Assembly (NCBI GenBank): GCA_001821135.1
Contig: MHSA01000011.1
Coordinates: 3,042-67,041 of the forward strand
Direction: 5' to 3'
Length of the DNA stretch: 64,000 bases
DNA from: Candidatus Taylorbacteria bacterium RIFCSPLOWO2_01_FULL_48_100
GTDB taxonomy: Bacteria > Patescibacteriota > Minisyncoccia > Phycocordibacterales > UBA10002
Positions 3,680 through 56,774 of this stretch are shown piece by piece. The first letter of the stretch is position 1. Every line of letters begins with the position of its first letter. Below the pieces are notes generated by a model. It made no database searches and was not told the origin of the DNA. It worked only from the letters and a program-made list of their open reading frames with translations. The position numbers were made by a program, and so were the translations under genes.

Positions 3680-3716
3680 AGGCGCGCAAACGAAGTTTGC
3701 GCGCCTTTTTCTTTTT
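3680..3716 (+). terminator. Rho-independent terminator (GGCGCGCAAAC...GTTTGCGCGCC plus T-run)
   Basis: Perfect GC-rich hairpin followed by a TTTTTCTTTTT run. Confidence 0.7.
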
Positions 3717-3749
3717 GCGCATACTGTAAAATCACAGGTTGTTGTTTTT

Positions 3750-4217
3750 ATGAAAGAAATCCTTTCTCACAGCATCGCAGACACCGCGAAGTTTGCGCAA
3801 GAGTTTCTTGCTGGGCTGTTTCCATGTGCAGATTCGTCGACAGTTGTTGGGTTATACGGAGATCTCGGTTCGGGCAAGACCGCGTTTGTTCAGCAGATTG
3901 CGAAAGCACTCGGCGCGCGCGGCTCTGTCCAAAGCCCGACTTTTGTCATTATGAAAAAATATGCGCTAAAAAATCCCCCCTCACTCCCCCCTTTATTAAA
4001 GGGGGGATATAGAGGGGATTTACAACTTGTCCATATAGACGCCTACCGTTTAGACAGCGCCACGGATTTAAAAAAACTCGGCTGGGATGCGCTCTCAAGC
4101 GACCATAGTAATCTCATTTTCATAGAATGGGCAGACCGAGTCGCCGACATTTTACCGCTTGACCATATTAAACTCCGCTTTGAGTTTGTAGATGATACAA
4201 CTCGCAAGATATCGTAA
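3750..4217 (+). CDS. tsaE: tRNA threonylcarbamoyladenosine biosynthesis ATPase TsaE (YjeE), carrying a ~17-aa in-frame palindromic-repeat insertion
   Basis: P-loop GDLGSGKT, SPTF motif and HIDAYRL motif are present. The insertion KNPPSLPPLLKGGYRGD is encoded by the palindromic element at 3968-4021. Confidence 0.75.
   Translation: MKEILSHSIADTAKFAQEFLAGLFPCADSSTVVGLYGDLGSGKTAFVQQIAKALGARGSVQSPTFVIMKKYALKNPPSLPPLLKGGYRGDLQLVHIDAYRLDSATDLKKLGWDALSSDHSNLIFIEWADRVADILPLDHIKLRFEFVDDTTRKIS
3968..4021. repeat. G/C-rich palindromic repeat element, copy A (AAATCCCCCCTCACTCCCCCCTTTATTAAAGGGGGGATATAGAGGGGATTT), in-frame inside tsaE
   Basis: Nested inverted repeats. Shares the AAATCCCCTCC...GGAGGGGATTT module with copies at 35846, 55199 and 55722. 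Confidence 0.6.
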
Positions 4218-4285
4218 AACTTAGCGTAATCTTCCACCCGCCAACCCACCTTATTTTTATGTGCGTATAACTTATATAAAAACAC

Positions 4286-4325
4286 CACATCAATATAGTA
4301 CGCGACCGCGTACTATATTGATGTG
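4286..4325. repeat. Perfect 19-bp-arm palindrome CACATCAATATAGTACGCG-AC-CGCGTACTATATTGATGTG. Probably a terminator for the minus-strand gene 4386-4958, and related to the palindrome at 5006-5043.
   Basis: Read directly from the sequence. On the minus strand it is followed by GTGTTTTTA. Confidence 0.6.
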
Positions 4326-4385
4326 GGTAAATTGTTAGACAATCAATAATGAAATAACTAGAAGATTTACGAGAGAAGTTAGAAG

Positions 4386-4958
4386 TTACGGAGGATATAC
4401 TTCAAAATAATCACGAAGCACGCGGTCGTTTTCTATTGCTTCTGCAATCACATACAACAAATCTTTTCCTATTTTGAAATCCGCTTTGAGGAGCGCAATG
4501 AAATCCTCGCAGTCGTGTGGATACACCCACACACTATCTTGTAGCCACTTAAAACCGATTGCTTGGAGCGTGTTCCGTACTTTGTCCCGCAACTCTTTTT
4601 GTTTTTCTGGAATATCAAAAATAAGCACGCGCCATTTGCCGTCCCATTTTTCAGGTTGAGGAAGTTTATACTCGCATTTTTTCCACTCGCACAATTTCTC
4701 TTTTCCTTTCAGCGTTAATTCAAGAAATTTTTTATTCCGGCGGAGCAGTCCATTTTTTACGAGTCGTTCTCGCGCCGCAAGAACCGAGCGGTACTTTTTC
4801 TTTTGTTCGGCACTGTCCATCATTTTATACATTTTATACACACTCCCCGCGAGCATCTGTGTAGTCATTTCAACTAACGATTCTGCCGCGGCAAGCATCG
4901 TACGCTGTAGCCGTGTATTTCGTACTCGCTCCATTACTTTTTTCTCAAGCATTCCCAT
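4386..4958 (-). CDS. PaaX-like transcriptional regulator (N-terminal winged helix plus C-terminal Cas2/VapD-fold domain)
   Basis: 190 aa. The segment VLIFDIPEKQKELRDKVRNTLQAIGFKWLQDSVWVY follows the hydrophobic-FD[IV]-basic...Q.SV[FW] pattern of Cas2/PaaX C-terminal domains. Confidence 0.45.
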   Translation of the reverse strand: MGMLEKKVMERVRNTRLQRTMLAAAESLVEMTTQMLAGSVYKMYKMMDSAEQKKKYRSVLAARERLVKNGLLRRNKKFLELTLKGKEKLCEWKKCEYKLPQPEKWDGKWRVLIFDIPEKQKELRDKVRNTLQAIGFKWLQDSVWVYPHDCEDFIALLKADFKIGKDLLYVIAEAIENDRVLRDYFEVYPP

Positions 4959-5005
4959 ATTATTTGTTTTTCTTTTTGATAGATGTAGTGCAAGTTACAA
5001 GGGGT

Positions 5006-5043
5006 GTGTTTTTAAGTATATCAATATAGTGCGCGGTCGCAAG
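5006..5043. promoter_or_regulatory. Degenerate copy of the 4286-4325 palindrome (ATCAATATAGTGCGCGGTCGCAAGTTATATTGAT), about 50 bp upstream of the PaaX-like gene start. Candidate operator.
   Basis: It shares the ATCAATATA outer arms and the GCGCG-CGC centre with the downstream palindrome. Confidence 0.4.
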
Positions 5044-5270
5044 TTATATTGATATTGACTGATAGAATGAGGTTGTGGTAGGATTTTGGGCAGAGAGACA
5101 CAGAAGTTCCTCTTAGATTTCTGCGCCTCGCAGAGCGGGGGCGGGAAGCGTACGGCGTGTTGCCTGAAAGGGCGGCGCAACGGAGCGCTGAAAGGCGAAT
5201 GAACTTTGAAAACACAAGTTCCGTTTGCCCTGAAAGGGGCGAAAGAACAAAAACCTGAAAGGGTTATAGT

Positions 5271-6083
5271 ATGGACTACTGGAAAAGAGATGAACAAAAC
5301 GATGTTACGCTCCTGTTATTCAAACCAGGCGAGCAGGCATCAGAAGATTGTCATAGAGCTTTTGCGATTCTCAGGGAGGTTGAACTCACTGAAACAGAAA
5401 AGGTTCTCTCAATACTGGGAAAGAAAAATAAGCGACCACATCATGGCGGAGATTTGTACCAGTCCCCCAACTTGGGAGATGCTCCCTTGGAGACGGTGCG
5501 CCGAATCATTGCGGCAACACTCATTGTGTGCCGTGTCGAATGGTTCACTTTTGTGAATAGTATTGTTGAAATCACAAATCACAATAGTAGCAGGTCTCCT
5601 CATTTTCGTTACGGCGCGGTTCTCGGTCTTCTTGATGGGTTTTTGTATCCAGATCTGTTTTTGGGAGACGAAGATGATGAAGAAAAAACCTTGCCGTTTT
5701 ACGAGGACATTGGCCCGTGTTGCATATACACAGCAATACTGCTTTGTATATTGAAACTCACTTGGTGGTGTCCAGACGAAAACGAGGAAGACGGCCATCA
5801 ACTCTCAAAACAGCAATCTGGAGAGCTGTCTAACCTAATTAGCAAGTGTCTAGACGAACCTAAGTTAGGTGTCGTTGGAACTCACCCACGGATGCTTGCA
5901 ATATCGCGGTTCCTCACCGAAGTGGCAGTCCGTTACGATGAGGAAGACAGCGAGGGAGGTTCGTTTCGTTCTGAATGGATAGAGGCAATTGCAAATGGAT
6001 TTCTTTATAAAATGTTCGGTAAACTATCCTTCCAGAATCAAGTGGAGTTGGTGAACGAGGCCATTGTGGACTTAAACGGTTGA
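5271..6083 (+). CDS. Hypothetical protein
   Basis: 270-aa ORF with no recognisable domain. It is preceded by four CTGAAAGG repeats and followed by a terminator hairpin. Confidence 0.45.
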   Translation: MDYWKRDEQNDVTLLLFKPGEQASEDCHRAFAILREVELTETEKVLSILGKKNKRPHHGGDLYQSPNLGDAPLETVRRIIAATLIVCRVEWFTFVNSIVEITNHNSSRSPHFRYGAVLGLLDGFLYPDLFLGDEDDEEKTLPFYEDIGPCCIYTAILLCILKLTWWCPDENEEDGHQLSKQQSGELSNLISKCLDEPKLGVVGTHPRMLAISRFLTEVAVRYDEEDSEGGSFRSEWIEAIANGFLYKMFGKLSFQNQVELVNEAIVDLNG

Positions 6084-6142: not shown

Positions 6143-8656
6143 ATGATCTCAACGATGGCTGAAAAACAGAACAAGCGGCTGGTGCTTATAGATGCGCACG
6201 CGATACTGCATCGCGCATATCATGCGTTGCCGGAGTTTAGTAATAGCAAAGGCGAACCGACGGGCGGGCTCTATGGGCTTGCGGCGATGCTTATTAAAAT
6301 TATTGCGGATTTAAAACCCGACTATCTTGCTGCAGCGTACGATTTGCCGAAGCCGACTTTTCGGCATACTGCGTACAAAGAGTACAAAGAAGGGCGGGCG
6401 AAGGCAGACGATGCGCTCATTTCACAAATGAAACGCTCGCGCGAGATTTTTGAAGCGTTTGGAATCCCGATTTACGACAAAGAAGGGTTTGAAGCGGATG
6501 ATATTCTCGGTACGATTGTAGAAAAGTTACAAGTTACACGCTACAAGTTACAAGTTGATATAGTTATCGCGTCTGGCGATATGGACACCCTACAATTAGT
6601 TGATGGAAAAAAAGTGCAAGTGTACACACTCAAAAAAGGGATTAATGACACGGTTTTGTATGACGAAGAAAAAGTAAGAGAACGCTATGGATTTGGTCCA
6701 AAACTTTTACCGGATTTTAAGGGGTTGAAAGGCGACCCGTCGGATAATATAAAAGGAATAAAAGGGATTGGCGATAAAACTGCGACCGAACTCATACAAA
6801 AATTCGGCTCGGTTGAGGAAATCTATAAGAAGTTGAAGAAAGATAGGGGTATATTTGAGAAAGAAGGAATAAGTGCGCGAATGATTGGACTATTGGATGC
6901 GGGAAAAGAAGATGCTGAGTTTTCTAAAATACTCGGAACTATTCGGCGCGATGCGCCGATTGAATTCGCACTTCCTGAAAAGCCGTGGCGTGAGTGTGCG
7001 AATGTGGGTAATGCAGAAAAGTTATTTCAAGAGTTGGAGTTTCGCAACCTTGGGCAGAGGTTGCGGGCGGCGATATCAAAAGTTTCTTCATCTCGCCCTT
7101 TTCAAGGGGGAGTACCCGAGCGAAGCGAGGGGGAGGGGGTGGTTTCTGCAGAAATTAAATCACCCCTCCGCCCAGCACTTTCTTCAGAAAGTGCTGGGCA
7201 CCTCCCCTTAATCAAGGGCAGGATGAAAGAAAAAGAATTTTCCGACCTCTCCATCGCCCTTTGGCTCATCAATTCCAACCTAACAAACCCGACCGCGGAC
7301 GATGTGTGTAATTTTGCAGGAACGAAAGATGTGAGCGTGGCGCGCGCGAAAATTCTTGCGGAACTGAAAACGCGCGGCCTCGCGCGCGTATTTGAAGAGA
7401 TTGAAAAACCACTCATTCCTGTTGTTGAAAAAATGAACGCCCGCGGCGTGAAAATGGATACAAAGTATCTTGCCGTGCTTTCTACAGAGTACCACCGCGA
7501 GCTTGCTGCGCTGAAAAAAGAAATCTGGAGTATGGCTGGAACCGAATTTAATGTAAATTCACCAAAACAGCTTGGCGAACTTTTGTTTGTAAAAATGGGG
7601 CTTAAGGCGGCGCGACAGAAGAAGACGGCAGGAGGCGCGCTTTCAACACGCGAAAGCGAGCTTGAAAAGATGCGCGATTTGCACCCAATTATTGCGAAGA
7701 TTCTTGAGTACCGCGAGTTTCAGAAACTACTCTCAACCTATATTGACGCGCTTCCAGAATCGGTAGATACGCACGGTCGCTTGCACGCGTCGTTTTTGCA
7801 GGCGGGAACGACGACGGGGCGAATGTCGTCGCAAAATCCGAACTTGCAAAATATCCCCATTCAGACCGCGCGCGGCAGGCGGATTCGGAACGCATTCGTC
7901 GCGGATAATGGCTGTGCGCTCCTCGCGTTTGATTACTCGCAAGTAGAACTTCGCGTTGCGGCAATTCTTTCTGGAGACCAGAAACTTATTGAAATCTTCA
8001 AGAAAGGGGAAGATGTACATACTGCGGTGGCGGCGGAAGTTTTTGGTGTCGCGCCAGAAAAAGTGACTAAAGAAATGCGCCGACAGGCGAAAGTAATTAA
8101 CTTCGGAATTTTGTACGGTATGGGAGTGAATGCGTTGCGCGCTACACTCGGAGATGTAGAAACTCCAGTATCGCGCGCGGACGCGCAGAAATACTTGGAC
8201 GAATATTTCGCGCGCTTTCCAGTGCTCGCCGCGTATTTGGAAGAAACAAAAGCCGTCGCGCGCGAGCGCAGCTACACAGAGACCTTATTCGGGCGGCGCA
8301 GATATTTTGAGGCGCTCAATTCGCCGATTTCGTACATCCGCGCGGCAGCAGAGCGGCAAGTGATTAACGCGCCGATACAAGGCACTGCCGCAGATATCGT
8401 GAAAATTGCGATGGCTCGGGTGGCTGAATTTTTGCGAGACGAGAAATTAGACGAAAAAGCACGCTTGATTTTACAAGTGCATGATGAATTGGTATATGAA
8501 GTGAAAAAAGAGTCGGTTTCCGAGCTCGCGCCAAAAATACAAAAGATAATGGAGGGCGTGTTGTCTCCAGGGCAGTCGCGGGGTGTGCCGATTCTGGTAG
8601 AAGTGAGCGTCGGCGACAATTGGGGGGAGATGCGGAAGTTAGTGGAAAGTAGTTAG
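6143..8656 (+). CDS. polA: DNA polymerase I (5'-3' exonuclease domain plus family-A polymerase domain; no obvious 3'-5' proofreading domain)
   Basis: N-terminal LVLIDAHAILHRAYHA (5' nuclease). C-terminal family-A motifs DYSQVELR, the O-helix RRQAKVINFGILYG, and QVHDELV. Start placed at ATG 6143 (alternative 6155), after the upstream terminator. Confidence 0.9.
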   Translation: MISTMAEKQNKRLVLIDAHAILHRAYHALPEFSNSKGEPTGGLYGLAAMLIKIIADLKPDYLAAAYDLPKPTFRHTAYKEYKEGRAKADDALISQMKRSREIFEAFGIPIYDKEGFEADDILGTIVEKLQVTRYKLQVDIVIASGDMDTLQLVDGKKVQVYTLKKGINDTVLYDEEKVRERYGFGPKLLPDFKGLKGDPSDNIKGIKGIGDKTATELIQKFGSVEEIYKKLKKDRGIFEKEGISARMIGLLDAGKEDAEFSKILGTIRRDAPIEFALPEKPWRECANVGNAEKLFQELEFRNLGQRLRAAISKVSSSRPFQGGVPERSEGEGVVSAEIKSPLRPALSSESAGHLPLIKGRMKEKEFSDLSIALWLINSNLTNPTADDVCNFAGTKDVSVARAKILAELKTRGLARVFEEIEKPLIPVVEKMNARGVKMDTKYLAVLSTEYHRELAALKKEIWSMAGTEFNVNSPKQLGELLFVKMGLKAARQKKTAGGALSTRESELEKMRDLHPIIAKILEYREFQKLLSTYIDALPESVDTHGRLHASFLQAGTTTGRMSSQNPNLQNIPIQTARGRRIRNAFVADNGCALLAFDYSQVELRVAAILSGDQKLIEIFKKGEDVHTAVAAEVFGVAPEKVTKEMRRQAKVINFGILYGMGVNALRATLGDVETPVSRADAQKYLDEYFARFPVLAAYLEETKAVARERSYTETLFGRRRYFEALNSPISYIRAAAERQVINAPIQGTAADIVKIAMARVAEFLRDEKLDEKARLILQVHDELVYEVKKESVSELAPKIQKIMEGVLSPGQSRGVPILVEVSVGDNWGEMRKLVESS
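7095..7224. repeat. G/C-rich modular palindromic repeat element, copy B, inserted in-frame in the polA inter-domain linker (encodes ~43 aa: RPFQGGVPERSEGEGVVSAEIKSPLRPALSSESAGHLPLIKGR)
   Basis: Module GGGGGAGTACCCGAGCGAAGCGAGGGGGAGGGGGTG is identical to copy D at 39550-39642. Module CAGCACTTTCTTCAGAAAGTGCTGGGCACCTCCCC is shared with copy E. The ending CCTTAATCAAGGGCAGGAT is shared with copies C and D. Confidence 0.75.
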
Positions 8657-16888: not shown

Positions 16889-17674
16889 ATGGCTATGAAT
16901 AAAGTAGTCGTCGGTCAATCGGTTACGGCTGGCCAAATGAAGGACTTCTGGCGTCAGGTTGACGATGGAAGTATTGGTGGAGATTATTTTCAAGATTTTC
17001 TCGCACACAAACTGGAAAGGAAAGATGGGAACACGGTATCAGAAGTGACAACACCAAAAATCGTCATCCCAAACCTCCTCTCCACCCCTCCCACCCTCGC
17101 CGACTGGCTCAAAGCCCGAGAGGAACTGCACAAGTTCCTTACAGGTGAGCAGGTGATTCTGCGCGATATCTTCGCCCTCACGGACGAAGAACTCGCCAGC
17201 ACCACGCTGATGCCCGCCTTTCGTCCTGCAGGTGCCACCAACCGTAATGCGATTTATTGGAAAATCAAAATTGGGGAGAACAAACCCTATGAAGAAATAG
17301 ATGTAATGAAGTACACAAACAGTCAAGGTCCAAAACAACCCGAGCTGTACATCATCAACCGCTCCGTTACACCAGATGACGACACGGTCGGCGACAAAGC
17401 CAAGAGTCCCAACCAACTCATCGCTCACAACAAGCTATGGCTCGGACTCTTCTGCTGGTGCGATGCAGATACTCTGCATCATGTCATTACCGGAGAGACC
17501 CTTGACCAAAAAACTTGGACATGGTTCCCAAACGACCGTCTCCGCTACGCCAAGGTTGCGCTCGGCTACTGGAACCCGCTCAACCGCCGGGTCTACCTCT
17601 ACTGGCGCTATGCCGTCTATTGCAATCCGAACAACGGCGCTCGCTCAGCAAAAAAAGTTCCCATTAAATCTTGA
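16889..17674 (+). CDS. DGR target (variable) protein; the C-terminal ~35 aa are encoded by the VR
   Basis: 261 aa. The C-terminus ...RYAKVALGYWNPLNRRVYLYWRYAVYCNPNNGARS aligns with the TR-encoded NGKVANGNWNPNNRQVYLNWNYADNCNPNNGARS. Confidence 0.8.
   Translation: MAMNKVVVGQSVTAGQMKDFWRQVDDGSIGGDYFQDFLAHKLERKDGNTVSEVTTPKIVIPNLLSTPPTLADWLKAREELHKFLTGEQVILRDIFALTDEELASTTLMPAFRPAGATNRNAIYWKIKIGENKPYEEIDVMKYTNSQGPKQPELYIINRSVTPDDDTVGDKAKSPNQLIAHNKLWLGLFCWCDADTLHHVITGETLDQKTWTWFPNDRLRYAKVALGYWNPLNRRVYLYWRYAVYCNPNNGARSAKKVPIKS
17542..17648 (+). repeat. DGR variable repeat (VR)
   Basis: About 84% identical to the TR at 17938-18044. It differs from the TR only where the TR has A (apart from one edge position). 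It ends in the shared GC-rich CGGCGCTCGCTCAG (IMH-like). Confidence 0.85.
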
Positions 17675-17937
17675 ACCTTTCCCCCTTAAATCTTACTCGC
17701 TTCTTCGGTGGGTAGGTCATCGCCACTGTGGATACCCATGGTGGCGATTTTGTTACACTAACAACGGCTGTGAAATTGGTCCAGCACTTACCGTAAGTGC
17801 TGGATAACAATTTGCCAAAAAAGAAATTGCTTGCTGCATTTTTATACAATGCTCGCTCTACCCCGAGATAACACAGAAAACTGTGTAAACGATTTTCGGT
17901 GATACGGATGAAGACGCGGCACAATGAGGCACCGTCT

Positions 17938-18044
17938 CCACAACGGCAAGGTTGCGAACGGCAACTGGAACCCGAACAACCGCCAGGTCTACCTCAACTG
18001 GAACTATGCCGACAATTGCAATCCGAACAACGGCGCTCGCTCAG
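17938..18044 (+). repeat. DGR template repeat (TR)
   Basis: Non-coding copy of the VR with many AAC codons. All informative mismatches are TR-A to VR-N. Confidence 0.85.
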
Positions 18045-18066
18045 AAATTTCTCGTACCAAGGAGCC

Positions 18067-30155: not shown

Positions 30156-30708
30156 CGCGTTCCAAATCAACCCACACATATCTTAATCCAGTTTTCGTGT
30201 CAGTTCTTTCTTCGCGGAATACTTCGTGCGTGAAGTCCTTGTTCCAGTCGTGGAAGAAAACATCACCCTCCGCATCGCTTTCAACGAGCGTGAGGTAGAG
30301 TTTGTCGGTGAGCGGGAGCGCTTGTTTATAAATCTCTCCGCCACCGATGATGAAGATTTCCTTTTTGTTTTCCTCCTGCCCTTTTCCAAAGGGGAGGTGT
30401 CTCCCATAGGGAGACGGAGGGGTGTCTTCTGTTTTCTGCGCAATTTGTATCGCTTCTTCAAGCGACCCCGCAACCACCACTCCTTCCTTCTTAAAATACG
30501 GATTGCGCGTTATAACGATATTTGTGCGGTTTGGAAGTGCTTTGCCGATAGAGTCAAATGTCTTTCTGCCCATAATAACCGTATGTCCAGTCGTGAGCAC
30601 CTTAAACCGCTTAAGGTCGTCCGAAATGCGCCAAAGGAGCGCGCCCGCCTTTCCAATCGCGCGATTGTTCCTCCCCACCGCGGCAATGATGCTGATGCAC
30701 GCTTCCAT
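30148..30708 (-). CDS. folA: Dihydrofolate reductase carrying a ~24-aa in-frame palindromic-repeat insertion
   Basis: ISIIAAVGRNNRAIGKAGALLW...DLKRFKVLTTGHTVIMGRKTF ... IGGGEIY are DHFR motifs. The insertion EDTPPSPYGRHLPFGKGQEENKKE is encoded by the palindromic element at 30379-30426. Confidence 0.85.
   Translation of the reverse strand: MEACISIIAAVGRNNRAIGKAGALLWRISDDLKRFKVLTTGHTVIMGRKTFDSIGKALPNRTNIVITRNPYFKKEGVVVAGSLEEAIQIAQKTEDTPPSPYGRHLPFGKGQEENKKEIFIIGGGEIYKQALPLTDKLYLTLVESDAEGDVFFHDWNKDFTHEVFREERTDTKTGLRYVWVDLERAI
30379..30426. repeat. G/C-rich palindromic repeat element, copy H (CCCTTTTCCAAAGGGG ... GTCTCCCATAGGGAGAC), in-frame inside folA
   Basis: Two inverted-repeat modules in the style of the CCCTTATCATAAGGGGG modules of copies B, C and D. 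Confidence 0.55.
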
Positions 30709-34498: not shown

Positions 34499-36152
34499 AC
34501 AGGCGGTTGCGGAAGCACTCACAAAACTTGGGATTAAAAATCCCGATGTGTCGTTGGAACACCCAGAGGAATTGTCGCACGGCGATTATTCCACGAATGT
34601 TGCGCTTCGGTATGCGAAAGAACTTAAAAAAAGCCCGCAGACAATCGCAGAAGATATAATACGATATATCGTACTACAGAAGATTCCAGCACTTGCGCGC
34701 GCGGAAGCGGCGGCAGGTTTTGTGAACTTTTTTCTCGCCGGAGAATTCTTTGCGGAACGAATACAAGAGATTTTGGAAAAGAAAGATGGTTTTGGAAAGC
34801 AGGATGTTGGAAAGGGAAGGAAAGTGGTTGTAGAATTTTCGTCTCCGAACATTGCAAAGCCGTTTACGATTGGGCATTTGCGCTCAACAATTATCGGAGA
34901 CGCAGTTGCGAAAACGCTCTCTTTTCTAGGATATTCTGTTATCCGCGACAATCACCTCGGTGATTGGGGTACGCAATTCGGAAAAATGATTGTTGCGATT
35001 AAGAAGTGGGGAGATATTCAGAAAATTGCAGAAAACGCGGCTCCTGTTAGAGCGTTGGTGGATTTGTATGTCTGTTTTCACGCTGAAGCAAAAACGAACA
35101 TCGCGCTTGAAGATGAGGCGCGTGAGTGGTTTGTGAAATTGGAGAAAGGAGATGAAGAAGCGCGCGGTTTGTGGAAGCAGTGCGTAGCGTGGTCAATGAA
35201 GGAGTTTGAGTCGCTGTACAAACGGCTTGGCGTTTCTTTTGATACGATGCATGGAGAGAGTTTTTTTGAAGATAAAATGCGCGCTGTGGTGGAGGATCTT
35301 GAACGGAAAAATCTCTTAAAAGAAAGCGAAGGCGCGCGGCTTGTATTTTTTCCTAGCGATTCCTTGCCGCCGCTTATGATAATAAAAAAAGACGGCGGGA
35401 CATTGTACGCGACTCGCGACCTGGCGACTGATGCATGGAGGAAAAGAGAGTATGGCGACGGGGTAATTATCGTCAATGAGACGGGCGGAGAGCAATCGCT
35501 GTATTTCAAGCAGGTTTTTATGCTGGAAGAAATGCTCGGCTGGTTTGCGCGCGGCGAGCGGGTGCACATCGGGCACGGGCTCACGCGTGGGAAAGAAGGG
35601 AAGATGAGCACGCGGGAGGGCAACACGATTTGGCTTGAAGATGTGCTTGACGAGGCAGTGAAGCGCGCGGAAGCAATAAATAAAGAGACGGCAGAAATAG
35701 TTGGAATCGGCGCGCTTAAGTTTAACGACTTGAAGCGGGAGGCGAAACAAGACACCATTTTTGATTGGAATGATGTGCTGAATATGAAAGGCGACTCTGG
35801 ACCGTACTTGCAGTATTCTTATGCGCGGGCAATGTCGGTAATCAGAAAATCCCCTCCTCAGTTGAGGAGGGGTGCCGAGTTCGCGAGGCGGGGTGGTGGT
35901 GTTACTACATTAGAACGCCTCCTTTACCGATTTCCTGAAGTCGTACTGCGCGCGGGCAAGGACTACGCGCCGCATTTTATTGCGACTTATCTTATTGAAT
36001 TAGCGGGCGCGTTTAACAATTGGTATGCGAAGGAGCGCATTCTTAATGCTGGGGAGGAAACGGAATACCGCCTCGCGCTCACCGCCGCATTCGCGCAGGT
36101 TATGAAAAATGGACTTTGGCTACTTGGCATCGCCGCGCCGGAGAAGATGTAA
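34479..36152 (+). CDS. argS: Arginine--tRNA ligase carrying a ~19-aa in-frame palindromic-repeat insertion near residue 455
   Basis: SSPNIAKPFTIGHLRSTIIGDA (HIGH-like), GDWGTQFGKMI, and a C-terminal DALR domain. The insertion SPPQLRRGAEFARRGGGVT is encoded by repeat copy G. Confidence 0.9.
   Translation: MVTESIKQAVAEALTKLGIKNPDVSLEHPEELSHGDYSTNVALRYAKELKKSPQTIAEDIIRYIVLQKIPALARAEAAAGFVNFFLAGEFFAERIQEILEKKDGFGKQDVGKGRKVVVEFSSPNIAKPFTIGHLRSTIIGDAVAKTLSFLGYSVIRDNHLGDWGTQFGKMIVAIKKWGDIQKIAENAAPVRALVDLYVCFHAEAKTNIALEDEAREWFVKLEKGDEEARGLWKQCVAWSMKEFESLYKRLGVSFDTMHGESFFEDKMRAVVEDLERKNLLKESEGARLVFFPSDSLPPLMIIKKDGGTLYATRDLATDAWRKREYGDGVIIVNETGGEQSLYFKQVFMLEEMLGWFARGERVHIGHGLTRGKEGKMSTREGNTIWLEDVLDEAVKRAEAINKETAEIVGIGALKFNDLKREAKQDTIFDWNDVLNMKGDSGPYLQYSYARAMSVIRKSPPQLRRGAEFARRGGGVTTLERLLYRFPEVVLRAGKDYAPHFIATYLIELAGAFNNWYAKERILNAGEETEYRLALTAAFAQVMKNGLWLLGIAAPEKM
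35846..35903. repeat. G/C-rich palindromic repeat element, copy G (AAATCCCCTCCTCAGTTGAGGAGGGGTGCCGAGTTCGCGAGGCGGGGTGGTGGTGTT), in-frame inside argS
   Basis: Shares the AAATCCCCTCCTCA(A/G)(C/T)TGAGGAGG module with copies E and F. Confidence 0.65.
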
Positions 36153-39522: not shown

Positions 39523-39549
39523 TTCGTGATTTTTTGTATTCTTTCCTCT

Positions 39550-39642
39550 CGCCCTTATCATAAGGGGGAGTACCCGAGCGAAGCGAGGGGGAGGGGGTGT
39601 CAGAAAAAAAACACCCCTCCCTTTCCCTCCCCTTAGGTAAAG
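39550..39642. repeat. G/C-rich modular palindromic repeat element, copy D (intergenic, between ileS and recO)
   Basis: CCCTTATCATAAGGGGGAGTACCCGAGCGAAGCGAGGGGGAGGGGGTG ... ACACCCCTCCC ... CCCCTTAGGTAAAGGGCAGGGTAT. The GGGGGAGTACCCGAGCGAAGCGAGGGGGAGGGGGTG module is identical to copy B. Confidence 0.75.
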
Positions 39643-39661
39643 GGCAGGGTATAAAGAAAAT

Positions 39662-55198: not shown

Positions 55199-55346
55199 CA
55201 AATCTCCCACTCAGTTGAGGGGGAGTACTTGAGTCCGTCTAATGCGGACGAATAGGAAGGGTGGGTTCGGGAAAAACACCACCACCTCCCCCAGCACTTT
55301 CTAAAGAAAGTGCTGGGTACTCCTCCTCAATTAATGAGGAGATTTA
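55199..55346. repeat. G/C-rich modular palindromic repeat element, copy E (largest, ~148 bp)
   Basis: AAATCTCCCACTCAGTTGAGGGGGAG ... CAGCACTTTCTAAAGAAAGTGCTGGGTACTCCTCCTCAATTAATGAGGAGATTT. Shares modules with copies B, F and G. Confidence 0.7.
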
Positions 55347-55652: not shown

Positions 55653-55721
55653 TACACAAAACTGTCCAGTAAAGAATATACACTACACCGTTTATCGCGT
55701 CAACATTTTGTATATGTTCCA

Positions 55722-55751
55722 AAATCCCCTCCTCAACTGAGGAGGAGATTA
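55722..55751. repeat. Palindromic repeat element, copy F (AAATCCCCTCCTCAACTGAGGAGGAGATT)
   Basis: Minimal module also present in copies E and G. Confidence 0.6.
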
Positions 55752-55813
55752 AAGAGAAGCACCTTGCCTTGCTCACCCTTCTGTTTCCCATCGCAAAAAA
55801 CGCTTGAAAGAAC

Positions 55814-56650
55814 AAATGTCTTTTATGTATAATACAAATGTCCTTTATAAATGTCCGTTAGATTTTATAAACGACATTCATATATGTATAAAAAGAGCAT
55901 AAAGGACATTAGAAGAAATACAAATGTCCTTTATAAAAAGACAGAATATCCCGATATGTCCTTTATAGGCGGAGAGTACTTGATTTTCCTTGTTAAAAAG
56001 GTAGAAAACTTTGTTCGCGCTATATACCTAATAACAAATTTTCTATCGGACAGTGAGCCGTTAAAATGGAGATTACGGACAATCTCAACTGAATTAATTG
56101 ATAAGTTAATGTCCTTTATAAAAAGTGAAGTAAATCAAGTGAATATTCGTTTGTACCGCGCGGACTTTTTAGGGTGTCTCTCCGGTATTGTATCTCTGTT
56201 GAATGTAGGAGAAGAGGGCGGCGTTATTTCTGAAGCGAATGTTGCGCTTCTAAAGAGGGAAATACAAAGCTTTTTCCCCATTTTTAATGAGAGAATCTTT
56301 GTGATGCGCAAGGACGATATTGAAAATCTTCCGCTTGCAAAAAATAAAGAGGCGTCTTTTCGGCACAAACCTGCGCGCGGAAGACCCCGTCTTATGCGGA
56401 GGTTGTCCGTTAGAAACACTGAAGATGTTTTAATAAGTCCTATACAGGATTCTGATAACATACAAAATGTCTTTTATAAACATAAAGGACAAGACAATGT
56501 AAGCGTTCGTAAAAGAAATAAAAGAACAAGAAACATAGAAGACATAAGGTCAAAACTGCGCATCACTCGCCAGAAATCAATTATGGATATTCTAAAGGAC
56601 AAAAAGAAGTTAACAATTCGTGAGTTAATGTCCTTTATAAAGGACTGCGG
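55814..56650. repeat. Iteron-like array: at least 8 copies of ATGTCCTTTATAAA (and its inverse ATAAAGGACAT) in the promoter region and within the coding sequence of the 55851-56774 gene
   Basis: Copies at approximately 55819, 55838, 55898 (inverted), 55924, 55957, 56109, 56468 with adjacent inverted copy 56481, 56593 (inverted, partial: TAAAGGACAAAAAG) and the perfect palindrome GTCCTTTATAAAGGAC at 56631. Confidence 0.7.
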
Positions 56651-56774
56651 TGAGAAAACACTTCAGCGGGATTTATACGAATTGTCCGATAAGGGCGTGT
56701 TAAAAAAAGAGGGAGAAAAAAGGTGGAGTGCTTATTCTTTTGTTCAGCCGCTTCTATTATTTGATGGAAAATGA
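55851..56774 (+). CDS. Hypothetical DNA-binding protein with a C-terminal winged helix-turn-helix; the coding sequence itself contains the iteron motif (MSFIK peptide repeats)
   Basis: The C-terminal SIMDILKDKKKLTIRELMSFIKDCGEKTLQRDLYELSDKGVLKKEG is a DeoR/MarR-like wHTH. AT-rich gene. Confidence 0.5.
   Translation: MSVRFYKRHSYMYKKSIKDIRRNTNVLYKKTEYPDMSFIGGEYLIFLVKKVENFVRAIYLITNFLSDSEPLKWRLRTISTELIDKLMSFIKSEVNQVNIRLYRADFLGCLSGIVSLLNVGEEGGVISEANVALLKREIQSFFPIFNERIFVMRKDDIENLPLAKNKEASFRHKPARGRPRLMRRLSVRNTEDVLISPIQDSDNIQNVFYKHKGQDNVSVRKRNKRTRNIEDIRSKLRITRQKSIMDILKDKKKLTIRELMSFIKDCGEKTLQRDLYELSDKGVLKKEGEKRWSAYSFVQPLLLFDGK

What the first reader, a model, noticed from the sequence alone, without database searches (positions are those of the whole stretch)
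3968..4021. Palindromic repeat inserted in-frame in tsaE (family copy A)
TsaE keeps its P-loop and HIDAYRL motifs but contains an extra KNPPSLPPLLKGGYRGD segment. That segment is encoded exactly by a nested G/C-rich palindrome (ATCCCCCCTC...GAGGGGGAT around CCCCCCTTTA-TT-AAAGGGGGG). This is the same module style as seven other copies in the window. Intact in-frame insertions of palindromic repeats into essential genes are the hallmark described for Rickettsia palindromic elements. Seeing it in a CPR-like genome is notable.
Basis: partly seen in the sequence, partly recalled or inferred. Interest (0 to 1): 0.55.

Follow-up and report, generated by a model that had tools for sequence, protein, structure and literature searches.

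The report
Palindromic repeat inserted inside tsaE
A 50-base hairpin-forming repeat sits in frame inside the tRNA-modification gene tsaE of a tiny groundwater (CPR) bacterium, adding about 12 floppy residues to a surface loop, and the same hairpin core is scattered through genomes and genes of at least ten other bacterial phyla.

Summary
Window 3971-4021 is a nested palindrome, in frame in a bona fide tsaE (3750-4217) of a Candidatus Taylorbacteria genome.

It is an insertion. The loop between the SPTF and HxDxYRL motifs is 17 residues in half of 112 homologues and 29 here. Close relatives lack the segment.

The same loop carries at least three other, unrelated palindromic inserts in other Parcubacteria. 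One is a clean 33-nt hairpin with a matching empty site.

Across six tsaE orthologues, silent sites are 90% identical inside the element and 48% in the flanks. The element uses rare codons.

The inner hairpin TCCCCCCTTTANTAAAGGGGGGA occurs in 99 stretches of genomes from at least 10 other phyla. About a third show the same nested AATCCCCCC/GGGGGGATT architecture, and some sit in frame in carB, mnmA and pyrC-like genes.

It reads open in two of three frames on both strands. It is not a Rickettsia RPE by length or sequence, and has no REP tag, no target duplication and no linked transposase.

Verdict: a new family of a known kind, the protein-coding palindromic repeat. How it moves, and why its stems are frozen, remain open.

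The parts
3750..4217 (+). tsaE ORF (155 aa), host gene of the insert
   Evidence: Pfam PF02367 E=2e-29. TIGR00150 matches in two stretches. 100% identical to a Candidatus Taylorbacteria protein. AF2 pLDDT 85.9, pTM 0.84. Foldseek top hits are TsaE/YjeE structures.
3971..4021 (+). Whole nested palindromic element (AAATCCCCCCTCACTCCCCCCTTTATTAAAGGGGGGATATAGAGGGGATTT), translated as N75-D90
   Evidence: Stems are nearly invariant in six orthologues.
3971..3981 (+). Outer stem, left arm (AAATCCCC.CT)
   Evidence: MFE structure pairs 3971-3978 with 4014-4021 and 3980-3981 with 4011-4012. The equivalent AATCCCCCC arm recurs in cross-phylum copies.
3982..3984 (+). Internal loop, left side (CAC); free to vary among orthologues
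   Evidence: Per-column table.
3985..3994 (+). Inner stem, left arm (TCCCCCCTTT)
   Evidence: Perfect 10-bp stem. It is the core used for the collection scans.
3995..3997 (+). Apical loop (ATT); the central base varies (T/G/C/A) among orthologues
3998..4007 (+). Inner stem, right arm (AAAGGGGGGA)
4008..4010 (+). Internal loop, right side (TAT); variable among orthologues
4011..4021 (+). Outer stem, right arm (AG.GGGGATTT)
3933..3944 (+). SPTF motif (residues 62-65) at the base of the beta-hairpin, upstream of the insert
   Evidence: Invariant in alignment A1. Strand 68-73 follows it in the model.
4032..4052 (+). HIDAYRL motif (residues 95-101) at the base of the beta-hairpin, downstream of the insert
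   Evidence: H95, D97, Y99, R100 and L101 are invariant. It lies on strand 92-97.
7092..7222 (+). Related composite of four hairpin modules, in frame in polA (linker between the 5'-3' exonuclease and polymerase domains)
   Evidence: Translation. Absent or different in three orthologues. DNA fold z=-6.2. The 36-nt stretch 7106-7141 is identical to intergenic 39564-39599.
30375..30415 (-). Related double-hairpin module, in frame in the dihydrofolate reductase gene (about 18 extra residues)
   Evidence: Translation. Pfam and PDB matches are split into two stretches around it. Fold z=-3.7.
35846..35872 (+). Related hairpin AAAATCCCCTCCTCAGTTGAGGAGGGG inside argS; it shares the outer-arm 15-mer with the tsaE element
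   Evidence: It lies in a naturally variable linker, so a net insertion is not shown.
39548..39649 (+). Intergenic composite copy of the polA-type modules
55201..55344 (+). Intergenic composite of about 145 nt that folds into one long hairpin with nested hairpins
   Evidence: family D12; z=-6.95.
55721..55750 (+). Intergenic single hairpin AAAATCCCCTCCTCAACTGAGGAGGAGATT

Best explanation
A short, non-autonomous palindromic repeat became inserted into the DNA that encodes the tip of a beta-hairpin of TsaE. It belongs to a widespread family of modular G/C-run hairpins with core TCCCCCCTTTANTAAAGGGGGGA nested in AATCCCCCC/GGGGGGATT.

The palindrome has no stop codon in two of three frames on either strand. 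In those frames it encodes a Pro/Gly-rich peptide (PPL.KGG or PPF.KGG). An insertion that keeps the frame therefore only lengthens a disordered surface loop, and the enzyme survives. The two catalytic motifs lie at the base of the hairpin, away from the tip (inferred from the model's topology).

The insert was then inherited in a small group of Taylorbacteria-like tsaE genes.

The same loop has been colonised independently by at least three other palindromic elements in other Parcubacteria. It is therefore a tolerant site, and possibly a preferred A/T-rich target.

The stems of the element have stayed almost unchanged while the surrounding gene diverged to saturation at silent sites. My reading is that the hairpin is being maintained. 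Each silent third-codon base in one arm pairs with a second-codon base in the other arm. Keeping the pairing therefore ties silent sites to protein constraint.

Shown: palindrome, frame, insertion polarity, loop position, hot spot, silent-site freezing, cross-phylum family. Inferred: how it moved and why the stems are frozen. The absence of a target duplication suggests a single-strand hairpin route of the IS200/REP type.
For: - Palindrome and stability.
- Insertion polarity: the modal loop is 17 aa in 56 of 112 homologues and 29 aa here. Solved TsaE structures have even shorter loops. Relatives at 64-71% identity lack the segment.
- Loop position: the insert lies between strands 68-73 and 92-97, with pLDDT 51-68.
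- Hot spot: type B is a clean 33-nt hairpin, CCCGCCCGTACCGAAACGGTACGTTCAGGCGGG, in L108, with an otherwise collinear empty site in L109. Type C is a hairpin in L110. L008 carries a 99-nt triple hairpin. All lie in the same loop, and their distribution on the tree is patchy.
- Silent-site freezing: pairwise third-position identity is 0.90 in the element against 0.48 in the flanks. Third positions of conserved-residue codons are invariant in 11 of 12 element codons against 9 of 52 flank codons (Fisher p=2e-6).
- Rare codons: the element uses CCC (14% of Pro codons), GGG (17%), TTA (8%) and AGA (7%).
- Dispersed family within this genome: a 36-nt exact repeat is shared by the polA coding sequence and an intergenic site. 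A shared outer-arm 15-mer occurs at 3969, 35846 and 55721, and 0 of 100 shuffles reach 3 matches.
- Cross-phylum family: 99 stretches contain the core, against about 0.03 expected for 22 fixed bases in 596 Gb. Both nested outer arms are present in 31 of 99 copies and one arm in 47.
- In-frame copies elsewhere: carB, mnmA, a cbiE/T-like gene and a dihydroorotase gene carry it in frame.
- Open frames: two of three frames are open on both strands.
Against: - No transposase, target-site duplication or polymorphic empty site was found for this copy, so mobility is inferred from family distribution only.
- The exact inner hairpin occurs once in the 64 kb window.
- The tsaE-specific variant (four-G right arm, non-complementary internal loop) was found only in tsaE in the metagenome scan, with 3 hits, all tsaE. 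This fits vertical inheritance of one old insertion better than an active element.
- None of the 99 stretches in the species-representative genomes had a tsaE-like flank, and none of the 80 titles shown is a CPR genome.
- 149 ORFs neighbouring cross-phylum copies show no enriched transposase family.
- The stems are invariant rather than covarying, so there is no covariation proof of structural selection.
- One orthologue (L114) tolerates a silent stem-breaking change.
- The hot spot could reflect protein tolerance alone, rather than DNA targeting.
Confidence: 0.8

Rival explanations
1. Recurrent, site-specific insertion. An active hairpin element with a preference for this A/T-rich stretch (…AAAAAT|…) has entered tsaE several times independently or by lateral transfer. 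The element is therefore younger than the gene divergence, and that is why its sequence is so uniform.
For: Identity drops sharply at the element borders, from 0.91 to 0.66 overall and from 0.91 to 0.48 at third positions. The element is present in P0013/L002, which groups with a different TsaE clade. Its element is 49/51 identical to that of L007 while the flanks are 61% identical. Other palindromes entered the same codon position. AAAAT precedes the C-rich arm at 3969, 35846 and 55721.
Against: All six tsaE copies share derived oddities: a four-G right outer arm, 3-nt non-complementary internal loops, and an identical position and frame. This variant was found nowhere but in tsaE. The internal-loop and apical bases differ among copies about as freely as flanking silent sites, as expected for old copies. 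The NJ tree of a 140-aa protein is weak evidence for the placement of P0013.
Confidence: 0.25
2. Exapted nucleic-acid signal. The hairpin is kept in tsaE because it does something as RNA or DNA, for example a protein-recognition or processing site, an mRNA stability or translation-pausing element, or a replication-related hairpin. Its translation is incidental.
For: Silent sites are frozen in rare codons across orthologues whose flanks are saturated. The same stem sequences, not merely stems, are conserved across phyla. The hairpin is very stable.
Against: No Rfam family matches; the only hits are sub-threshold chance hairpins. No U-tract or other recognisable signal is present. Close relatives do without it. 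Other lineages carry unrelated palindromes at the same place, which argues against a tsaE-specific function. One stem-breaking silent change is tolerated.
Confidence: 0.2
3. Ancestral or adaptively evolved protein loop. The Pro/Gly-rich segment is ordinary protein sequence, and the palindrome is a by-product of PP…GG codons.
For: The peptide is conserved among carriers.
Against: The modal loop is 12 residues shorter, and solved structures are shorter still. The codons used are the rare ones, yet they are invariant. The same 23-nt sequence occurs in 99 unrelated loci, mostly outside long ORFs. The segment has low model confidence.
Confidence: 0.03
4. Assembly or sequencing artefact, or a chimeric contig.
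For: Repeats can mislead assemblers. One related database protein (P0018) looks chimeric, with its break just upstream of the element.
Against: The identical protein is recorded on 23 contigs from several sources and on an independent JGI contig, L111. Orthologous copies come from unrelated samples. The frame is intact in all of them.
Confidence: 0.01

Closest known systems
Rickettsia palindromic elements (RPE-1 to RPE-10; Ogata et al. 2000, as summarised in PMC10969869)
   Same: A palindromic, hairpin-forming repeat dispersed in a small genome. It is inserted in frame into unrelated housekeeping genes, is translated, and sits at positions compatible with the fold.
   Different: RPEs are about 100-150 bp and were described in Rickettsia (in Wolbachia too, from my own recollection, not checked here). 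This element is about 50 nt, built of G/C-run nested hairpins, sits in a CPR bacterium, and shares its core with many phyla. No RPE-domain model matches TsaE, PolA, ArgRS or DHFR here.
REP / REPIN elements and their RAYT transposases (PMC3116915, PMC3733652)
   Same: Short (20-40 bp) imperfect palindromes that are highly repeated and often arranged as nested or inverted doublets forming larger hairpins. Intragenic copies in replication and repair genes have been reported. No target duplication is seen, which is compatible with a single-strand hairpin transposition route.
   Different: There is no GTAG or CGTC tag at either end; the sequence shows AAAT/AATC. No RAYT or Y1 transposase was seen near 99 copies or in what was examined of the window. 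REP families are usually species- or genus-specific, whereas this core is shared across phyla.
Bacterial MITEs (e.g. Correia/NEMIS, ERIC, BOX, cyanobacterial MITEs; review PMC10969869)
   Same: Non-autonomous, inverted-repeat-bounded and hairpin-forming, with occasional in-frame fusions to host ORFs. The composites of about 130-145 nt at 7092-7222 and 55201-55344 are of MITE size.
   Different: The tsaE copy is at the very bottom of the MITE size range. No target-site duplication is seen in the clean filled/empty pair for the sister element. No parent insertion sequence has been identified.
Small dispersed repeats (SDR) of heterocyst-forming cyanobacteria (Elhai et al. 2008, Genome Res; recalled from memory, only seen cited)
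   Same: Very small (about 20-30 nt) palindromic mobile repeats that are found nested inside one another and occasionally inside genes without destroying them.
   Different: A different sequence and a different host range. No sequence comparison was run here, so this is a lead, not a test.

Membership tests
TsaE (YjeE) ATPase, host gene | Match to the family profile above the curated cut-off | tested here: met
   PF02367 scores 102.6 bits against a cut-off of 26.6. TIGR00150 scores 87.9 bits against 60.1.
TsaE (YjeE) ATPase, host gene | P-loop GxxGxGKT, SPTF and HxDxYRL motifs, and the TsaE fold | tested here: met
   G37, G40, K43, T44, S62-F65, H95, D97, Y99, R100 and L101 are invariant. Foldseek gives TM 0.69-0.74 to 5np9, 1htw, 6s84 and 6n9a.
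Rickettsia palindromic elements (RPE) | Palindromic repeat able to form a stable hairpin | tested here: met
Rickettsia palindromic elements (RPE) | In-frame insertion into a protein-coding gene, with the ORF kept and the insert at a surface position | tested here: met
Rickettsia palindromic elements (RPE) | Length of about 100-150 bp | tested here: not met
   The element is 49-51 nt.
Rickettsia palindromic elements (RPE) | Sequence similarity to an RPE family or RPE-encoded peptide domain | tested here: not met
   No RPE-named NCBIfam/TIGRFAM model is among the hits at E<=0.01 for TsaE, PolA, ArgRS or DHFR. A nucleotide comparison with RPE consensus sequences was not run.
REP / REPIN | Imperfect palindrome of 20-40 bp, repeated in the genome | tested here: inconclusive
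   The inner hairpin is 23 nt and the whole element 51 nt. Only one copy of this hairpin occurs in 64 kb, although sister modules are repeated.
REP / REPIN | Unpaired GTAG or CGTC tag at one end | tested here: not met
   The sequence at both ends is AAAT…ATTT.
REP / REPIN | Association with a RAYT (Y1/HUH) transposase gene | not testable with these tools
   The whole genome is not available. No transposase family is enriched among 149 ORFs near cross-phylum copies, but RAYTs are single-copy, so this says little.
MITE | Terminal inverted repeats | tested here: met
   The outer arms are AAATCCCC…GGGGATTT.
MITE | Target-site duplication flanking the insert | tested here: not met
   The clean filled/empty pair for the sister element (L108 against L109) shows a 33-nt gain with no duplication. 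For the tsaE element itself the flanks are inverted (AAAT/ATTT), not direct, and no close empty site is available.
MITE | A related autonomous insertion sequence supplying the transposase | not tested
   None was identified. This needs complete genomes.
Known structured RNA families (Rfam) | Match at or above a family's gathering score | tested here: not met
   Only five tRNAs are found in the window. At 3700-4300 there are only chance hairpin matches, at 17-25 bits against thresholds of 37-77.

The most novel reading that the evidence does not exclude
The tsaE hairpin is one visible tip of an undescribed, cross-phylum family of modular G/C-run hairpin repeats. The core is TCCCCCCTTTANTAAAGGGGGGA, nested in AATCCCCCC/GGGGGGATT. 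The family is built so that two of three frames are open on both strands, it repeatedly colonises loops of essential proteins, and its stem sequence is held constant by something that reads the nucleic acid: a conserved enzyme or host factor. On this reading the element is maintained at the DNA or RNA level even while it is being translated.
Probability: 0.3. Interest if true: 0.75.

Novelty: new member of a known kind. Interest (0 to 1): 0.55.

Why it matters
In-frame 'coding palindromes' are usually presented as a peculiarity of Rickettsia and Wolbachia. Here the same phenomenon appears in a CPR bacterium with a very small genome. It affects several housekeeping genes at once: tsaE, polA, folA and possibly argS. 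One TsaE loop has been hit by at least four different palindromes.

The same 23-nt hairpin core is found, sometimes in frame, in genes of at least ten unrelated phyla from similar groundwater and sediment habitats. That raises three testable questions:
- What moves or regenerates these hairpins across phyla?
- Why are their stems frozen at silent sites?
- How much of the lineage-specific loop variation in CPR proteins is repeat-derived rather than adaptive?

In practice, such inserts split profile matches and can mislead annotation, alignment and assembly.

Tried and rejected
- Rfam, at gathering and at permissive thresholds, finds no known RNA family.
- A scan of 2.9 million viral contigs for the inner hairpin gave 0 hits, so there is no evidence for a phage vector.
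- The metagenome scan with the tsaE-type variant gave only 3 hits, all in tsaE. It therefore gave no non-tsaE copies and no recent empty/filled pair.
- Pfam on 149 ORFs within 2.5 kb of cross-phylum copies found no enriched transposase.
- Literature searches turned up no description. I searched for CPR plus palindromic repeats, for the encoded peptides (PPLLKGG and related) and for the DNA motif.
- NCBIfam found no RPE domain.
- I considered RNA-level removal of the insert. I rejected it because every insert type in this loop keeps the frame and is stop-free: +33, +36 and +99 nt. Excision would not require this.
- I considered codon bias as the cause of silent-site identity. I rejected it because the element uses rare codons.
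- I tried to show a net insertion in ArgRS against solved structures. The module lies in a naturally variable linker, so the result is inconclusive.
- The NJ tree of TsaE is too weakly resolved to count insertion events reliably.

Full report
**Observation**

The window holds a 155-codon ORF at 3750-4217 (+). It is TsaE by several measures. Pfam PF02367 gives E=2e-29. NCBIfam TIGR00150 scores above its cut-off, matched in two stretches. The AlphaFold model has pLDDT 85.9 and pTM 0.84. Foldseek gives TM 0.69-0.74 to solved TsaE/YjeE structures.

Positions 3971-4021 form a nested palindrome. The 25-nt arms are 84% complementary. The perfect inner stem TCCCCCCTTT/AAAGGGGGGA spans 3985-3994 and 3998-4007 around a 3-nt loop. 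An outer stem spans 3971-3981 and 4011-4021, and 3-nt internal loops separate the two stems.

It is the strongest close-spaced inverted repeat in the 64 kb window. The inner motif is expected 0.00 times in shuffles. The fold is far more stable than shuffles: RNA -31 kcal/mol, z=-4.7, and DNA -17 kcal/mol, z=-4.8. The segment KNPPSLPPLLKGGYRGD (K74-D90) is encoded by 3969-4019.

The right outer arm has four G, not five. The inner hairpin itself is unique in the window.

**Source**

The protein is 100% identical to a hypothetical protein of Candidatus Taylorbacteria bacterium RIFCSPHIGHO2_02_FULL. That protein is recorded on 23 contigs from several sources. An independent JGI contig, L111, carries the same gene and neighbours. 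An assembly artefact is therefore very unlikely, and the 'CPR-like' guess is right.

**Insertion or ancestral sequence**

Among 112 of the 120 best homologues in which both motifs could be located, the stretch between SPTF and HxDxYR is 17 residues in 56. It is 29 residues here. Solved TsaE structures have still shorter loops.

Eight close relatives carry the same segment, NPPS[LF]PPL[LVI]KGG[YHK]RGD. These are P0002-P0008 and P0013. P0009, P0010, P0012, P0014 and P0015, at 64-71% identity, lack it cleanly. The derived state is therefore the long loop, with a net gain of 12 residues.

In the model the segment lies between strands 68-73 and 92-97. Its confidence is low: block means are 68 and 51, and residues 81-86 fall below 50. 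It is thus the tip of a beta-hairpin. The catalytic SPTF and HxD motifs sit at the base of that hairpin. That the tip is remote from the ATP site follows from this topology and is an inference. I did not measure it on coordinates.

**A hot spot**

The same loop carries other, unrelated inserts in other Parcubacteria. I fetched DNA for several of them, and each insert is itself a palindrome.
- L108 has CCCGCCCGTACCGAAACGGTACGTTCAGGCGGG, 33 nt. The closely related L109 is collinear but empty at exactly that codon, and there is no target duplication.
- L110 has CTCTCCCCCTTTTCTAAGGGGGAGA.
- L008 has a 99-nt triple hairpin.

On a (weak) NJ tree the insert types are patchily distributed and interleaved with empty genes. 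At least four different palindromic elements have therefore entered this one loop. All of them keep the frame.

**Nucleotide-level behaviour**

I obtained tsaE DNA for six carriers and aligned them.

The element is about 91% identical among carriers and the flanks 66%. Pairwise third-codon-position identity is 0.90 inside the element against 0.48 in the flanks. For codons whose residue is identical in all six genes, the third base is invariant in 11 of 12 element codons against 9 of 52 flank codons (Fisher p=2e-6).

The element's codons are rare in this genome: CCC is 14% of Pro codons, GGG 17% of Gly, TTA 8% of Leu and AGA 7% of Arg. Codon bias and peptide selection therefore cannot explain the pattern.

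Variation is confined to the apical base and the two internal loops. The one exception is a silent CCT-to-CCC change in L114 that breaks a stem pair.

The coordinates add one point. The palindrome is symmetric about 3996, so paired positions sum to 7992. Every third-codon base in a stem therefore pairs with a second-codon base of the other arm. If pairing is maintained, silent sites inherit protein constraint. This is my inference, not a shown mechanism.

**Family in this genome**

The window holds several G/C-run hairpin modules.
- A composite of about 130 nt lies in frame in polA (7092-7222), in the exonuclease-polymerase linker. It is absent or different in three orthologues.
- A double hairpin lies in frame in the DHFR gene and adds about 18 residues between the matched halves.
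- A hairpin lies in argS, in a naturally variable linker, so a net insertion is not shown.
- Intergenic copies lie at 39548-39649, 55201-55344 and 55721-55750.

A 36-nt stretch is identical between the polA coding sequence and an intergenic site. The outer-arm 15-mer AAAATCCCCYCCTCA links the tsaE, argS and 55721 copies, and 0 of 100 shuffles reach three matches.

**Family elsewhere**

I scanned one genome per bacterial and archaeal species for the inner hairpin, which has 22 fixed bases. About 0.03 matches are expected by chance in 596 Gb. The scan found 99 stretches. By record title they come from Nitrospirota, Desulfobacterota/'delta', Aminicenantes, Bacteroidota/Ignavibacteria, Nitrospinota, Planctomycetota (Brocadiia), Chloroflexota, Omnitrophota, KSB1 and others. 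Several genomes hold multiple copies.

Both outer C-run and G-run arms are present in 31 of 99 copies, one arm in 47 and neither in 21. The pooled flank consensus is AA(T)CCCCCC. This is the same nested architecture as in tsaE.

The hairpin is stop-free in two of three frames on both strands, giving PPL.KGG or PPF.KGG. The third frame has TAA. 21 of 100 copies lie inside open stretches of 150 or more codons. Pfam confirms real genes carrying it in frame: carB, mnmA, a cbiE/T-like methylase and a dihydroorotase.

No copy was found in 2.9 million viral contigs. No transposase family is enriched among 149 neighbouring ORFs. The tsaE-specific variant (four-G right arm, non-complementary internal loops) was found only in tsaE in the metagenome collection.

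**Interpretation**

The best-supported reading is an RPE-like event. A non-autonomous palindromic repeat inserted in frame into a tolerant surface loop of TsaE. It is translated as a disordered Pro/Gly-rich extension and is inherited in a small clade.

Two points remain open. The first is how it moves. The missing target duplication and the hairpin nature point to a single-strand route of the IS200/REP type, but no enzyme was found. The second is why the stems are frozen. The candidates are maintenance of the hairpin by selection or conversion, or recurrent site-specific insertion.

The shared derived oddities of all tsaE copies, and their absence elsewhere, favour one old insertion. The presence in the distant P0013 lineage favours at least one lateral event.

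**Comparison with known systems**

The element works like a Rickettsia palindromic element: in frame, translated and on the protein surface (PMC10969869). It fails RPE membership on length and on sequence.

It resembles REP/REPIN elements in being a short palindrome that nests and is occasionally intragenic (PMC3733652, PMC3116915). It lacks the GTAG or CGTC tag and has no known RAYT.

It resembles MITEs in having inverted termini, but shows no target duplication.

The cyanobacterial small dispersed repeats are a further analogue. I recall these from memory and did not test the comparison.

No paper in the searchable library describes this element, its peptides, or coding palindromes in CPR. 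That is absence of evidence in a limited library.

**Verdict**

It is a new family of a known kind of element. Two features lift it above routine: the multi-element hot spot in TsaE, and the cross-phylum, silent-site-frozen hairpin core.

Noticed in passing
window 4285-4326: A perfect 20+20-nt A/T-rich palindrome (CCACATCAATATAGTACGCG / CGCGTACTATATTGATGTGG). It lies between the tsaE stop and the convergent PaaX_M/Cas2-like ORF 4386-4958 (-). Its style differs from the G/C-run modules, and it could be a bidirectional terminator or an operator.
   Followed up: no
window 4386-6083: Two ORFs separate tsaE from polA here: a PaaX_M/Cas2-like ORF (4386-4958, -) and an ORF with no Pfam match (5271-6083, +). 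In most relatives tsaE and polA are adjacent (L001, L004, L005, L006). L108 has the same PaaX_M gene after tsaE.
   Followed up: partly
window 7092-7222 (polA): A four-hairpin composite of about 130 nt is translated in the linker between the 5'-3' exonuclease and polymerase domains. Orthologues carry shorter, different repeat-derived linkers. 36 nt are identical to intergenic 39564-39599.
   Followed up: partly
window 30375-30415 (folA, - strand): A double hairpin is translated as about 18 extra residues (…DTPPSPYGRHLPFGKGQE…) just before the conserved IIGGG motif of dihydrofolate reductase. Profile and PDB matches are split around it.
   Followed up: partly
window 55809-56480: Five copies of a 21-mer (AATACAAATGTCCTTTATAAA, 76-100% identical) lie at irregular spacing. 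They start upstream of and run into ORF 55851-56774, next to the composite repeat 55201-55344.
   Followed up: no
window 17535-17651 and 17931-18047: A 117-nt direct repeat, 87% identical, with copies 396 nt apart.
   Followed up: no
protein P0018 (ENA contig, 148 aa): The first 69 residues are identical to the window's TsaE up to …SPTFVIMK. After that the sequence diverges strongly and has no insert. It is either a chimeric assembly or a recombinant whose breakpoint lies five codons upstream of the element.
   Followed up: no
L114 96-599 (P0005 tsaE): This gene carries a second, different palindromic insert (PRLPSTLLRTSRSGQ; CCCCTCGACTT…AAGTCGCTCGGGG) before the P-loop strand, in addition to the type-A element.
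   Followed up: no
L027, L079, L089 (Ignavibacteria/Bacteroidota); L052 (Thermodesulfobacteriota): The same hairpin sits inside type-IX-secretion C-terminal sorting domains, at the same position in three genomes. A 1449-residue histidine kinase ORF contains long arrays of PPLEKG-type repeat units on both sides of the hairpin.
   Followed up: no
L010, L026, L046, L075, L083, L104 (Aminicenantes, Omnitrophota): In these genomes the hairpin is nested inside a larger palindrome, GTCATCGCGAGGAGCGAAGCGACGCGGC…GCCGCGTCGCTTCGCTCCTCGCGATGAC. A similar 'CGAGCGAAGCGAGG' motif occurs in the window's polA and 39564 modules. This suggests shared building blocks across phyla.
   Followed up: no
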